Positions 16,799 through 22,396 of a stretch of 64,000 bases of DNA are shown piece after piece (positions within the stretch are counted from its first letter, which is position 1; each line of letters opens with the position of its first letter). The position numbers and the translations under genes are program-made. The DNA comes from an uncultured archaeon. Lineage in GTDB: Archaea; Iainarchaeota; Iainarchaeia; Iainarchaeales; GCA-2688035. The notes beneath the pieces were generated by a model, which made no database searches, was not told where the DNA came from, and saw only the letters and a list, made by a program, of their open reading frames with translations. The stretch covers positions 28,246-92,245 of the forward strand of contig CAYHBD010000028.1 of NCBI GenBank assembly GCA_964354805.1, in the 5' to 3' direction.

Positions 16799-18043
16799 TT
16801 AAGCTTTTGCATGGGCTTTTTCCTCGCCCAGAAGCTCGACAACTTTGTCCATTTCGCCTGCAGCAAGCAAATCAAAAACCCTTTTTACATCAAAGGCGTT
16901 GTTGAATTCTGTTTCCTGCAAATTCTTTTCCAGCAGCTCGAAGCCCATTGCAGCAATGCTTTTCTTTCCAAGCTGCGCGTCCCGCAGCTGCTGCAGCTTT
17001 TGCTTGAAGCCTGCTTCCTCAAAAGAGCAATCGATCGCAATGATTGCCTTTTCCTTGAATTTTCCGCTCAGCTGCCTTAAATCAATGTCGGATCCTGCAA
17101 GGCCCTTTGCAAGGGTTCCACGCAGCTTTAATTTTATTAATGGTTTTCCGCTTTTTGAGCCTGCAATCAGGGCGGCAATCTTTTTTTCAACTTCTTCTTT
17201 TATTTGCTCATTGCCTGCTTCCCTGAATTCAATTTGGGCAAAAAGAAACTGCCTTTGATTTGGCAATGGAATGAATTTCAAATTGTTTTCCTTTGTTTCA
17301 AAAAAGCAAACGCCCTTTGGCTTCTCTGCCTCAAGCCTCTTCAATTGGGTTATTACAGTGCTGCCTGGAACAATGAAGCGCTTTTTCTGCAGGTTTTCCT
17401 CGCTCCTCCAGTGCAAATGCCCGTCAACAACCAAATCAAAGCCCTGGGGCAAATCATCCAAAGAAATTGACGCAATCATTTCGTCATCAAAAGGCAGGAA
17501 CTCCTTGATGCTCTGGTGCAGCAAAACAATATTGCAGGCGCCATTCTCGGGCAGGGGATTCCACAGTTTCAAAGCATCAAGCGCTTTCTTTTCAGGCACT
17601 CCGCTCAATCCTTGCACCACAACTTTCTCGCTGCCAATCAGCAACTCCGCTTTCGCCGCATGCAGGTAAACAAGGCAGCCTGCCTCCTGCAGAACCTCCA
17701 AAGCGTTCCTGAAATCTTTTGAACGAAACTCATGCGTTCCCGCTATGGCGATAACTGGAATTGAATCAAAAATAAATTCTTTTGTTTCGCCTTTCTTTTC
17801 ATACTTTACTTTTTCTGGCTGCCTCTTCTCTTTCCGCAGAACACTGAAAAGCCGGAACATCTCAAGCCATGCTTCCTGCGCTGGAACATCAGAATCAAAC
17901 AAATCCCCCGCGAGCAAAAGCAGGTCAGCCTTTTCTTTGAGGGCAAGCTCGAGCGCCTGTTTAGCCTGCTCAAAGGCTTCCAGCTCCCTCTCAGTTCCCT
18001 TGCCAAAGCCAATGTGAAAATCCGAGGCAATTGCGATTCTCAT
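16799..18043 (-). CDS. mre11: Mre11/SbcD-family DNA repair nuclease
   Basis: SDFHIG, AGDLFD, AGTHE, LHQ, GHLH, PGS phosphoesterase motifs. Confidence 0.9.
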   Translation of the reverse strand: MRIAIASDFHIGFGKGTERELEAFEQAKQALELALKEKADLLLLAGDLFDSDVPAQEAWLEMFRLFSVLRKEKRQPEKVKYEKKGETKEFIFDSIPVIAIAGTHEFRSKDFRNALEVLQEAGCLVYLHAAKAELLIGSEKVVVQGLSGVPEKKALDALKLWNPLPENGACNIVLLHQSIKEFLPFDDEMIASISLDDLPQGFDLVVDGHLHWRSEENLQKKRFIVPGSTVITQLKRLEAEKPKGVCFFETKENNLKFIPLPNQRQFLFAQIEFREAGNEQIKEEVEKKIAALIAGSKSGKPLIKLKLRGTLAKGLAGSDIDLRQLSGKFKEKAIIAIDCSFEEAGFKQKLQQLRDAQLGKKSIAAMGFELLEKNLQETEFNNAFDVKRVFDLLAAGEMDKVVELLGEEKAHAKA

Positions 18044-18087: not shown

Positions 18088-18750
18088 ATGGCAAAGATTT
18101 TATTCATTGTGAATGATCATCCAAACGAGGCTTTTGCAATTTCCGTTGCAAGGGAAGCAGCAAAAAGGCTCAGGGCAGATGGCCACGAAATAGTCTGGAA
18201 GATGACAAACCCAAAGGACACTGTGCTTGGCAAGGTTCTGAAAAACCCAAACATGGAAGTTAAAGCCAAAACTTTCATTGACGCACAGCGAGGAACCTAT
18301 GACAGAATGGGAAGATTGATCCAAAAGCACAATCCGAAAGTTACCTCCAATTTTCACGCCACCCCACATGACGACCCTCTTTGGACTGACCCGAGAAAAC
18401 CAGCAGCAGACTTTGAGATCTCGTATTCAAAGTTGCATGGAAGAACAGTGATGTTTATTGAAGTCAAAGCTCGTTACACAAAGCTTCCAAAAAGGCATTT
18501 GGAAAAGGGGAGGATTGCAATCCCAGCACATTCACCTTATCATGGAGCCGGCCATTATTTAAGGGAAGGAACCTCACAGCAGCTTACAAGAGAAATGGGC
18601 TTGACTCCGGAAATTTTGGGAACGGTGATTGCCAAAAGGATAGAAAACCGTGCAAGAAGACCAAAAACATTCCCGCAAAATGAAAGAGGCACAGTCCCAA
18701 GAGTTTTCAAAAGTTTTAGAAGAAATAATATCAGAAGAAGGCCAAGATAG
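18088..18750 (+). CDS. Hypothetical basic orphan protein, possible M14-like zinc hydrolase motifs
   Basis: 220-aa ORF; HPNE, NFH, FIE; C-terminus RRNNIRRRPR. Confidence 0.7.
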   Translation: MAKILFIVNDHPNEAFAISVAREAAKRLRADGHEIVWKMTNPKDTVLGKVLKNPNMEVKAKTFIDAQRGTYDRMGRLIQKHNPKVTSNFHATPHDDPLWTDPRKPAADFEISYSKLHGRTVMFIEVKARYTKLPKRHLEKGRIAIPAHSPYHGAGHYLREGTSQQLTREMGLTPEILGTVIAKRIENRARRPKTFPQNERGTVPRVFKSFRRNNIRRRPR

Positions 18751-18976: not shown

Positions 18977-19297
18977 TTATCCAACCATCCGCAGCGTGCT
19001 CTGCAGTTCCCTCTTTGCCCCTTTCAGGAGGGTTTTGCCTTCTGCAGTGATGCTGTAAACCTGCCTGTTGCCATCCTGCTTGACGCTTACAAAGCCCCTT
19101 GCCTGCAGCTTGTACAATACAACGTAAGCAGAGACATTGCCTGGCAGGAAGCCGAACTTTTTTTCAATTTCACTCCGCAAAGCATAAGCGTGCGAGGGCT
19201 TTTTTTTAAGCAGCGAGAGAACGTAAATCCACAGCAGTTCAACACCGAGCTTGCGCTGCAATCTCAGCAATTCCCTGCTTTTTTCAACAGCCGGCAT
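18977..19297 (-). CDS. PadR-family transcription regulator
   Basis: L.LLKKKPSHAY.L, Y.VLYKL...GFV, RQVYSITAEG. Confidence 0.9.
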   Translation of the reverse strand: MPAVEKSRELLRLQRKLGVELLWIYVLSLLKKKPSHAYALRSEIEKKFGFLPGNVSAYVVLYKLQARGFVSVKQDGNRQVYSITAEGKTLLKGAKRELQSTLRMVG

Positions 19298-19418: not shown

Positions 19419-20528
19419 ATGGCTGGAAAAATTAAGGTTGCGATTGCGGGAGTCGGGAACTGCGCGAGCAGTTTGATCCAGGGAGTTGAATACTATAAGG
19501 ATGTTGGCGCAGGAGACAAGCTTGTACCCGGCTTGATGCACAATGTTTTGGGCGGGTATAAGATTTCCGATATTGAGTTTGTTGCAGCTTTTGATGTTGA
19601 CAAGAGAAAAGTTGGAAAGCCATTGAACAAGGCGATTTACGAGAAGCCGAACAACACTTACGAGATTGTGAGCAAGGTGCCAAAGTGGGGCGATGTTATA
19701 GTGCAAAAGGGCCCTGTTTTGGACGGGATTGCACCGCACATGCTCGAATACCCGGAGGATGTTTCATTCAGGGTTGATGAGCGACAGAAGCCAGTGGATG
19801 CCACAAAAGTACTGCGAGATTCAGGCGCGGAGATTCTGATGAATTATATGCCTGTTGGCTCTGAAAAGGCTACGCAATATTATGCCCAGGCTGCTTTGGA
19901 TGCCGGATGCGCTTTCATCAACTGCATTCCCTCTTTCATTGCCTCAGAGCCTTCTTGGGAGAAAAAATTTAGGGAGAAGGGCTTGCCTTGTACGGGCGAT
20001 GACATAAAAGCAGAGGTGGGTGCAACAATTGTACATAGAACGCTTGCAAAGCTGTTTGACGACAGGGGCGTTAAAATAACAGGCACATACCAGCTGAATG
20101 TCGGCGGAAACACTGACTTTCTGAACATGACCAGGCATGAAAGGCTGAAATTCAAGAGGATTTCGAAGACAGAGGCAGTGCAAAGCAACCTGCAAGTGCC
20201 ATTGGAGCCTGACAAGGTTCACATTGGGCCAAGCGATTATGTTCCATGGTTGCTTGACAGGAAAATCTGCTTCTGCAGGATTGAAGGAGAAAAGTTCGGC
20301 AGGGCGCCTGTAAACATTGAGTTAAGGCTGCAGGTTGAGGACTCGGCAGACAGCGCCGGCTGCACAATTGACGGCTTGAGATGCCTGAAGCTTGCTTTGG
20401 ACAGGAAAATTGCAGGGGATTTGAGTTCAATTTCCGCATACATTATGAAACACCCCGCACACCAGCTCCCTGATCCGATTGCGAGGGAAATGATGGAAGA
20501 ATTCATTAAGGGAACAAGGGAGCGCTAG
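19419..20528 (+). CDS. ino1: myo-Inositol-1-phosphate synthase
   Basis: GVGNCASSL, YMPVGS, GDDIK, YQLNVGGNTDFLNM, HIGPSDY; SD GGAGG. Confidence 0.97.
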   Translation: MAGKIKVAIAGVGNCASSLIQGVEYYKDVGAGDKLVPGLMHNVLGGYKISDIEFVAAFDVDKRKVGKPLNKAIYEKPNNTYEIVSKVPKWGDVIVQKGPVLDGIAPHMLEYPEDVSFRVDERQKPVDATKVLRDSGAEILMNYMPVGSEKATQYYAQAALDAGCAFINCIPSFIASEPSWEKKFREKGLPCTGDDIKAEVGATIVHRTLAKLFDDRGVKITGTYQLNVGGNTDFLNMTRHERLKFKRISKTEAVQSNLQVPLEPDKVHIGPSDYVPWLLDRKICFCRIEGEKFGRAPVNIELRLQVEDSADSAGCTIDGLRCLKLALDRKIAGDLSSISAYIMKHPAHQLPDPIAREMMEEFIKGTRER

Positions 20529-21588
20529 AATTCAATTCATACAGAAATTGCACGTGCTCCGGCAATTCTTTAAGAATTGCCTCATCTTTCTTTATTTTTA
20601 TTAGGGCGAACAGAAGCTCTAAAGGCACTTTTGTTTCATTTCTTCTGAAATGTTCCATCTGCCTGTTTGAATACTTTTTTTTGGTAAATTTGTTTATTTC
20701 GTTTGCGAGACTTCTGTCGGTTCCGAACACACATTTTAATTCGCTAATCAAAGCGCAAAGTTGGTTGGACCGAATTCTGCCAAAGGCGGAAATTTTAATC
20801 ACCACATCGGTTAAGAGTTTTTGTTTTTCACCGCCAAAATATCCAACATGCCTGTAAAAATTAACTATTGACTTTTGCCGCATTATGGAGAAATTGAATA
20901 TATACTTGTAATCTTTAGGGCAATCCCTCTTTTGGAAATAAATTATTCTAGTGGATTTTACCCCAAACTCCAGTAACAGTCGCTTAATCTGTTCAAAAAA
21001 ACAGAGTGCGCTTTCAAGATAAGGTTTACTTTTTACCATAGTTAAATCTATTTGAAAAGAAAACTGCCTGTTTGTTTTTAACATTGGCTTGCTTCCTTCA
21101 AAAGAAAAGAAAGCCCTCAAAAACTCACTTTTAATTTCCCTGCTTCCGCCCATTATCCACCCAGGGATAAGAAACTCTTTCTCAGTTTTGTTGCCAGCCG
21201 GCGCGCCAGCAAGAATCAGGATTCTTGCGACAGCAGCATTCCAAACAATCGCCTTATAGGGTTGCTTCCTCCAGTTATTGTGATTTGGAGTGTACGCTTG
21301 CACCTTCCCAGTTACCCCAAAAACATTCTTGACAAGGGAAAGAAACCATTTACACTCAAACTCATTGCTCGAGTAAAGAATTATCTTCCTAGTTCTTGGG
21401 CTGCCGTCACTTGTATACCATTCAACATGCCCATCGCTCATCAGCGCAGCAACAAGCGCAGCAAGCTCACCCGAAGCGCGCAGCGGCAAAACCTTCTTCG
21501 CAAACAGCTTGCTCCTGTTCGTTATCCTCGGAAAAGCTGCCATAAGCTGCTCAAAGGTTACAACCGCATCGCCCATGCCCCACACCAA
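20506..21588 (-). mobile_element. Free-standing double-motif LAGLIDADG homing endonuclease gene
   Basis: LAALVAALMSDG and FLRAFFSFEG motifs with acidic catalytic residues; overlaps the ino1 3' end convergently by 23 nt; AT-richer than flanks. Confidence 0.88.
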
Positions 21589-21644
21589 TAAAACCTGCGC
21601 TTTTGCTTCTTAAAGCGGTTTCGGAAGAGAGCACTGTTCCACTG

Positions 21645-21765
21645 CTATTTTGAATAGCGGGGCTTCCGCTGATATTAAAAACATTTTGGGCTCAAAGTAT
21701 TACAATGCAGCCTGATTCAGGCAAAAGCTTCAGGCGGAAAGTGCATTGAGAAGGCGCGGGGGTAG
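21645..21765 (+). pseudogene. Possible decayed, displaced 3' end of ino1
   Basis: Colinear anchors with ino1 20420-20528 (TTTGA, TTCCGC..ATTA..AAACA, CCTGAT, CATT.AG, TAG); low overall identity. Confidence 0.35.
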
Positions 21766-21769
21766 TTTA

Positions 21770-22396
21770 ATGCCATACCAAGAAAACAAGAGAAAATTTT
21801 TTCAAAACTTTTCTGTAAAGTTAGGCATACTTTTCAGCAAGATTCCTTTGACGCCAAACCAGTGGACTTTGATTAGCCTGCTGCCTGCGGTTGTTGCGGT
21901 TTATTATTTAACAAAAAACCAGTTCATAGAAGCAGGCGCTCTGTTTTTTGTTGCCTTGTTCATTGACTGGATTGATGGCAGCGTTGCAAGAGTGGTCGGG
22001 CAAGCAAGCGCAAAAGGGGCATACATTGACACAATTGTTGACAGATATGTTGAAACAATAGTTATCTTTGGTTTATTGTTTTGCACTCTGCCGAATTTTT
22101 TTGTTCCAATTCAGGCTTGGATACTGTTAATGCTGTTTGGCTTTTTCATGACAACCTATGCTAAAGCGGCTTCAAGTGAGAAAAAGGTAATGAGCGAAGA
22201 GCACACGGGAAGCTTTTTGAACAGAGCCGAACGAACCATAATCTTGGACGCAGGAATACTGATTGCAGTTCTTGAACCAATTTATTTAACCTATGTAATC
22301 GCTGCCTTGGCTGTTCTTACAAACTTGGCTGCAATCCAAAGAATTTATATTGCATTAAAGACGTACAACGCAGAGCTGGCGCGGAATAAAAAATAA
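21770..22396 (+). CDS. CDP-alcohol phosphatidyltransferase (probable archaetidylinositol phosphate synthase)
   Basis: TPN.WT, DWIDGSVAR...GAYIDTIVDR, RAER; linked to ino1. Confidence 0.92.
   Translation: MPYQENKRKFFQNFSVKLGILFSKIPLTPNQWTLISLLPAVVAVYYLTKNQFIEAGALFFVALFIDWIDGSVARVVGQASAKGAYIDTIVDRYVETIVIFGLLFCTLPNFFVPIQAWILLMLFGFFMTTYAKAASSEKKVMSEEHTGSFLNRAERTIILDAGILIAVLEPIYLTYVIAALAVLTNLAAIQRIYIALKTYNAELARNKK

What the first reader, a model, noticed from the sequence alone, without database searches (positions are those of the whole stretch)
20420..21772. Free-standing LAGLIDADG gene splits ino1 from the phosphatidyltransferase, with a possible displaced ino1 3' end on its far side
Seen: an intact endonuclease gene lies antisense to ino1 and overlaps its last 23 nt. 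Beyond it, 21645-21765 has colinear anchors to ino1's last ~100 nt. TTCCGCATACATTATGAAACAC aligns with TTCCGCTGATATTA-AAAACAT (16/22; LSSISAYIMKH vs LNSGASADI-KH), followed by CCTGAT, then FIKGTRER* vs CIEKARG*. That TAG ends 4 nt before the next gene's ATG. Overall identity is low, roughly half, with indels. Inference: an intron-less, intein-less homing element that cuts the ino1 3' region and brings a resistant replacement end. This would be the cargo-loaded state of the echo pattern.
Basis: partly seen in the sequence, partly recalled or inferred. Interest (0 to 1): 0.78.

Follow-up and report, generated by a model that had tools for sequence, protein, structure and literature searches.

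The report
Endonuclease that swaps ino1's gene end
A selfish DNA-cutting gene sits tail-to-tail with the inositol-synthase gene of a tiny (DPANN) archaeon and of about 20 relatives, probably spreading together with a spare end for that gene, but the 'leftover gene end' reported in this window is really a DNA-repair-type promoter plus the wreck of an unrelated small gene.

Summary
Gene layout confirmed: an intact double-motif LAGLIDADG gene lies antisense to ino1 and overlaps it by 23 nt. The reported ino1 'echo' at 21645-21765 is not ino1: it scores within shuffles pairwise (p 0.08-0.86) and by profile (no hit). Its first anchor is half of a promoter box that also precedes radA, rad50, nurA, hel308 and both primase genes. 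The other two anchors are the start and end of a decayed zinc-ribbon gene. The element reading mostly holds at family level. All 20 loci whose contig reaches far enough have the gene at ino1's 3' end, including records labelled Aenigmarchaeota and Nanoarchaeota; empty alleles occur in the same genus. ino1 codons 326-362 follow the endonuclease tree, not the ino1 tree (AU p 0.002). Real echoes exist in 3-5 relatives. It works like yeast WHO elements and fungal mitochondrial mORFs but is not a member. Cleavage is untested. I found no paper on an archaeal case. This scan found both patterns (tail swap, repair box) before on other DNA; ino1 as host gene looks new.

The parts
19419..20528 (+). ino1, myo-inositol-1-phosphate synthase, 369 aa, intact host gene
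   Evidence: PF01658, E 4e-34
20394..20528 (+). ino1 tail (codons 326-369), inferred to travel with the endonuclease; left junction about codons 319-326 (20373-20394); cut site predicted within about 20394-20490
   Evidence: Identity to empty allele L005 is 0.91 at codons 281-310, 0.82 at 311-325, 0.62 at 326-340 (match line). Family AU tests. Cut site is inference.
20506..21576 (-). Free-standing double-motif LAGLIDADG endonuclease gene (356 aa from the ATG, 360 from TTG 21588) with a C-terminal helical, HTH-like domain; stop lies inside ino1
   Evidence: PF14528; model pLDDT 89.5; best folds are intein endonucleases, I-Tsp061I and I-DmoI; D52 invariant, position 164 Glu/Asp in all 25 homologues; dN/dS 0.14 versus L111
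21609..21614 (-). TATA-like box of the endonuclease gene
   Evidence: Same position in most family loci
21627..21646 (-). Promoter box, copy 1 (imperfect palindrome AGCGG-N4-CCGCT), 12 nt before the TATA; shared with host DNA-repair genes
   Evidence: 18.6 bits with a matrix built from 7 non-LAGLIDADG host genes; rank 26 of 28 genome sites above 18 bits, 26 of which precede a TATA; genes identified
21654..21673 (-).
   Evidence: 11.1 bits; tandem copies at the same 27-nt spacing in L002, L017, L039
21705..21765 (+).
   Evidence: 18/21 and 23/36 to L005; intact gene in L015, just after ino1; 25-codon form with one CxxC in L111
21770..22396 (+). CDP-alcohol phosphatidyltransferase (pgsA-like, probable archaetidylinositol-phosphate synthase)
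   Evidence: PF01066; follows ino1 within 5-120 nt in most empty alleles
18977..19297 (-). PadR-family regulator divergent from ino1, conserved neighbour in empty and filled alleles
   Evidence: PF03551

Best explanation
The gene is a free-standing homing endonuclease that targets the last ~45 codons of ino1 and moves with a replacement ino1 tail. Shown: the enzyme's fold and catalytic acids, its fixed position, empty and filled alleles in one genus, tail/enzyme co-phylogeny, stranded native tails in some relatives, and the promoter box. Inferred: the enzyme is expressed with the host's recombination genes and cuts an empty ino1 allele near its end. Repair from the carrier crosses over on the left at about codons 319-326 and copies tail, enzyme gene and promoter, so ino1 stays whole. 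On the right it joins wherever homology exists. Joining near the break strands 30-60 nt of the old tail (relatives). In this window no old tail survives; it was bypassed or has decayed, possibly because the zinc-ribbon relic served as the right-hand crossover (about 35% likely).
For: 20 of 20 family loci with enough contig have the gene tail-to-tail at ino1; the overlap is 23-67 nt in the 17 measured. Patchy in genus g5: 3 filled, 4 empty. Enzyme and ino1-body trees reject each other (AU p below 1e-4). Codons 326-362 reject the body tree in favour of the enzyme tree (AU p 0.0024; 0.013 without L003), while none of 8 equal-length body windows does. Tail-versus-body rank correlation is 0.57 in empty alleles and 0.20 in carriers; partial correlation of tail with enzyme 0.43, permutation p 0.003. 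Echoes: L003 20.6 bits and L066 11.8 bits against shuffle maxima near 4.4; the L001 echo runs on into an empty-type spacer and pgsA (score 113 versus 19 to its own tail); L075 and L068 marginal. Endonuclease GC 41% versus ino1 49%.
Against: No echo in this window, and none in about 20 of 25 carrier loci. The tail is only 111 nt and taxa are not independent; enzyme and ino1 body also correlate (0.79), so much inheritance is vertical. The window's own tail peptide is ordinary for its family, and at codons 349 and 352 it matches the empty consensus, so resistance is not evident from sequence. No nearly identical empty/filled pair was found. No cleavage data. How two alleles meet in one DPANN cell is unknown.
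Confidence: 0.68

Rival explanations
1. One reading: 21645-21765 is the displaced, decayed native ino1 3' end.
For: Right position; a 16/21 anchor exists; relatives do carry echoes there.
Against: Within shuffles in all tests. The anchors belong to the promoter box and the zinc-ribbon relic. Only 21674-21704 is unassigned, and its short resemblance to an ino1 end is absent in the closest relative L111.
Confidence: 0.05
2. Domesticated protein: a vertically inherited repair nuclease, or a WhiA-like regulator (LAGLIDADG plus HTH), kept in the host's DNA-repair regulon; its place beside ino1 is historical.
For: Purifying selection (dN/dS 0.14); repair-type promoter box; C-terminal helical domain and WhiA among fold hits; enzyme and ino1-body distances correlate.
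Against: Catalytic acids kept. Absent from this locus in 4 of 7 genomes of one genus. Tree conflict with ino1. Insertion scars in relatives. At least six unrelated LAGLIDADG genes of this genome use the same box.
Confidence: 0.12
3. Mobile intergenic endonuclease without obligatory cargo: it cuts nearby (ino1 end or pgsA), and the odd tail signal comes from chance co-conversion, selection to escape cutting, and the overlapping reading frame.
For: Most carriers have no echo. The overlap alone explains the last-codon shift (CGN in 15 of 17 carriers, 1 of 21 empties). The tail is variable in empty alleles too.
Against: The AU test left out the overlap codons and still favoured the enzyme tree. 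Downstream genes vary among carriers while ino1 never does, so pgsA is not the anchor. Echoes require a duplicated tail.
Confidence: 0.15

Closest known systems
WHO elements of Torulaspora and Lachancea yeasts (PMC7282813; bioRxiv 10.64898/2026.08.13.744650)
   Same: LAGLIDADG gene just downstream of a housekeeping gene; no splicing; host 3' end with discordant phylogeny; old 3' fragment pushed beyond the endonuclease gene and free to decay.
   Different: Archaeal chromosome; host gene ino1, not FBA1; about 45 codons replaced, not half the gene; no intein-derived or zinc-finger part seen in the enzyme; antisense overlap; no tandem clusters found; fragment absent in most carriers; cleavage not shown.
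Fungal mitochondrial mobile ORFs (mORFs) forming gene hybrids: Allomyces atp6; Glomus atp6, atp9, cox2, nad3 (PMC3630166)
   Same: Inserted C-terminus in phase with the host gene, endonuclease ORF, native C-terminus left behind or wholly replaced.
   Different: Glomus mORFs are part of the host gene's transcript; here the gene is antisense with its own promoter, in an archaeon.
Free-standing phage homing endonucleases, 'intronless homing' (T4 mobE, PMC2790892; F-CphI, PMC6083498; abstracts only)
   Same: Intergenic endonuclease gene that spreads by gene conversion with flanking DNA.
   Different: HNH or EndoVII-type enzymes in phages; a duplicated host-gene end is, from my own knowledge, not their hallmark.
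Monomeric archaeal LAGLIDADG enzymes I-DmoI, I-Tsp061I, PI-PfuI, TliVMA intein endonuclease
   Same: Two-domain fold, Foldseek E 4e-8 to 1e-6; acidic residue at the end of both motif helices.
   Different: Those are intron- or intein-encoded; 12-15% identity; this protein has an extra ~90-residue C-terminal helical domain.
Sulfolobales DNA-damage regulon under Orc1-2 (PMC6061795, abstract only)
   Same: An archaeal DNA-damage network exists; by analogy, a shared upstream element marks repair genes.
   Different: Different motif (ANTTTC per the scan's notes, not checked in the paper); binding protein and inducibility unknown here.

Membership tests
Double-motif LAGLIDADG homing endonucleases | Two LAGLIDADG domains in one chain | tested here: met
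   PF14528; model and fold hits
Double-motif LAGLIDADG homing endonucleases | Catalytic Asp/Glu at the end of both motif helices | tested here: met
   D52 invariant; position 164 Glu or Asp in all 25 sequences
Double-motif LAGLIDADG homing endonucleases | Site-specific cleavage of the empty allele | not testable with these tools
   Needs an assay
Free-standing homing endonuclease genes | Outside any intron or intein, own promoter, filled and empty alleles at one site | tested here: met
WHO elements | Host gene 3' part has a history discordant with its 5' part | tested here: met
   Family level: AU p 0.0024 and 0.013
WHO elements | Displaced host 3' fragment beyond the endonuclease gene | tested here: not met
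   Absent in this window; clear in 3 and marginal in 2 of about 25 carrier loci
WHO elements | Intein-related protein with a zinc-finger domain; host gene FBA1 | tested here: not met
   No intein or zinc-finger Pfam hit; C-terminus all helical; host is ino1
WHO elements | Tandem clusters from repeated homing | tested here: not met
   One gene per locus; a suspected older relic in L003 scored p 0.48
WHO elements | Allele-specific cleavage, resistant resident allele | not testable with these tools
   Needs an assay
Fungal mitochondrial mORFs | mORF within the host gene's transcript, in mitochondrial DNA | tested here: not met
   Antisense gene with its own TATA and box in an archaeal genome
WhiA-like domesticated LAGLIDADG regulators | Catalytic acids lost; conserved presence (feature recalled from my own knowledge) | tested here: not met
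   Acids kept; patchy presence at the locus

The most novel reading that the evidence does not exclude
DPANN archaea carry a non-splicing class of homing elements that swap the 3' ends of housekeeping genes (here ino1, across several lineages) and time their cutting by borrowing the operator of an undescribed, SOS-like host repair regulon, so that they cut when RadA, Rad50 and NurA are induced.
Probability: 0.35. Interest if true: 0.8.

Novelty: new variant of a known kind. Interest (0 to 1): 0.57.

Why it matters
It extends tail-replacing homing, published for yeasts and fungal mitochondria, to an archaeal lipid-precursor gene, with empty and filled alleles at hand for a direct cleavage test. 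It implies homologous gene conversion between DPANN lineages. The promoter box gives a handle on an uncharacterised DNA-repair regulon. For the scan it is a warning: short 'echo' anchors next to such genes can be the promoter box or debris of a neighbouring gene.

Tried and rejected
Echo in this window: rejected by pairwise, multi-allele and profile tests. A 15-nt resemblance to an ino1 end just before 21705: rejected, not kept in L111. The idea that the promoter region is itself an old copy of ino1 codons 323-333: dropped, since the same box precedes host repair genes. A relic of an older endonuclease behind the L003 echo: p 0.48. The 289-325 AU row was a stale duplicate and was rerun. The Mann-Whitney p treats kin as independent and is not relied on. 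Per-site empty/filled differences all lie in codons 334-369, but only the last codon clearly survives correction. No family member in viral contigs. No RNA holder listed. No contig showed a joint skipping the element; low depth, no evidence either way. The zinc-ribbon protein has no Pfam match and was found in only 2 of 196 genomes. Paper searches for archaeal or DPANN cases found none; the library lacks most subscription papers.

Full report
VERDICT. The endonuclease gene and its position are real. The ino1 'echo' in this window is not.

1. Layout. ino1 (19419-20528, +), a LAGLIDADG gene (20506-21588, -; ATG at 21576) and a CDP-alcohol phosphatidyltransferase (21770-22396, +) are intact. The overlap is 23 nt. 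Same-family genomes carry the title Candidatus Iainarchaeum, so the host is most likely an Iainarchaeota (DPANN) archaeon. Contigs of unrelated runs cover the ino1 junction and the 21565-21745 spacer at 95-100% identity.

2. The echo fails. Against the resident ino1 end, six scoring schemes give shuffle p from 0.08 to 0.86. Against 40 ino1 tails the best score is matched by 57% of shuffles. A DNA profile of the tails finds nothing. Anchored at the stop, identity is 12/36 against a mean of 11.

3. What the anchors are. Two empty alleles (L005, L015) have a 64-codon zinc-ribbon ORF right after ino1. Window 21705-21725 matches its start at 18/21, and 21734-21769 matches its end at 23/36, in register with the pgsA ATG. 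The closest endonuclease relative (L111, 84% identity) has almost the same spacer, with a 25-codon form that still has one CxxC; the window lost 17 more nt between short repeats. That accounts for the second and third anchors. The first anchor (21664-21671) lies in the second of two copies of an imperfect palindrome found upstream of the endonuclease in 16 of 22 loci.

4. The box is a host promoter element. The perfect palindrome occurs 8 times with a 4-nt spacer and 0-3 times with other spacers. A matrix built from 7 non-LAGLIDADG host genes finds 28 sites above 18 bits; 26 sit just before a TATA, against 1 of 59 in the next band. The genes include radA, rad50, nurA, a Hel308-type helicase, both primase subunits, two radical-SAM repair-type genes, a Cas4-like nuclease, a Bro-N gene and at least six LAGLIDADG genes. 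This gene's first copy scores 18.6 bits at the usual spacing; the second scores 11.1. That the box is an inducible operator is inference. I found it before looking at the scan's notes; it had been noted in this genome and in other DPANN genomes.

5. The enzyme. The model (pLDDT 89.5) has two LAGLIDADG domains and a C-terminal helical domain. Best folds are archaeal intein and intron endonucleases. Both catalytic acids are kept in 25 homologues, and dN/dS against L111 is 0.14.

6. The family. Every one of 20 loci whose contig reaches far enough has the gene tail-to-tail at ino1, including records labelled Aenigmarchaeota and Nanoarchaeota, while the gene on the far side varies. In genus g5, three genomes are filled and four empty. 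Enzyme and ino1-body trees reject each other. A second, 29%-identical LAGLIDADG occupies the same spot in two genomes.

7. The tail travels with the enzyme. Among carriers, ino1 codons 326-362 (overlap excluded) reject the ino1-body tree in favour of the enzyme tree: AU p 0.0024, and 0.013 without L003. None of eight body windows does so. Tail distance tracks body distance in empty alleles (0.57) but hardly in carriers (0.20). In the window, identity to L005 falls from 0.91 (codons 281-310) to 0.62 (326-340). Limits: 111 nt, 15 related taxa, and much vertical inheritance.

8. Real echoes. L003 and L066 carry 34-35 nt of ino1 end just beyond the promoter (20.6 and 11.8 bits; shuffle maxima near 4.4). 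In L001 the echo continues into an empty-type spacer and pgsA, and resembles empty alleles far more than its own tail (113 versus 19). L075 and L068 are marginal.

9. Mechanism. Inferred: expression together with the repair genes, a cut in the last ~45 codons of an empty ino1, and repair from the carrier with a left crossover near codons 319-326. The right join decides whether an echo is left. Here none is left. The window and L111 share the truncated zinc-ribbon gene but continue into different genes, each matching an empty arrangement (L005, L015). The relic may thus act as the right-hand homology, as the FBA1 fragment does for WHO elements; gene shuffling after vertical descent explains this equally well.

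10. Comparison. It works like WHO elements (PMC7282813) and mORF gene hybrids (PMC3630166), but fails defining features of both, so it is not filed as a member. I found no paper on an archaeal case. The scan has reported the same design at ahcY, sod, nre, iolM, tyrS and ychF; those notes are leads, not support.

11. Score. Interest 0.57: a well-supported family-level case with a ready assay and a regulatory link, but the headline observation for this window is wrong and activity is untested.

Noticed in passing
G000 genome-wide; in the window 61739-61758(-) and 63767-63786(-): The promoter box precedes about 26 genes, mostly DNA repair, replication and mobile nucleases; in the window it also precedes both primase subunit genes (60460-61698, 62716-63726).
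   Followed up: partly
L003:4886-4900 (ino1 orientation; G006): ino1 lacks about 44 codons (282-325) with a frameshift, at a short repeat next to the inferred junction: a broken allele or a misassembly.
   Followed up: no
L017 (G003) and L010 (G011), just after ino1: A second, 28-29% identical LAGLIDADG gene sits at the same site, truncated in G011, with a similar promoter box; no ino1 echo found.
   Followed up: partly
L015:2612-2803 and L005:2615-2803: 64-aa basic zinc-ribbon protein with no Pfam match, found in 2 of 196 genomes, with an internal stop in G012.
   Followed up: partly
L001, L112, between endonuclease promoter and next gene: Both share a ~150-nt stretch (possibly a small minus-strand ORF) absent from other carriers; in L001 it lies between the promoter and the echo.
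   Followed up: no
L096 (G000:C18:13069-15312): radA carries a LAGLIDADG intein.
   Followed up: no
window 16799-18043 and 18088-18750: Mre11-like nuclease gene next to an orphan 220-aa ORF with a basic tail; different orphan ORFs fill the same slot beside padR in relatives.
   Followed up: no
P0010: A family member with an in-frame deletion of about 36 residues in the C-terminal helical domain.
   Followed up: no
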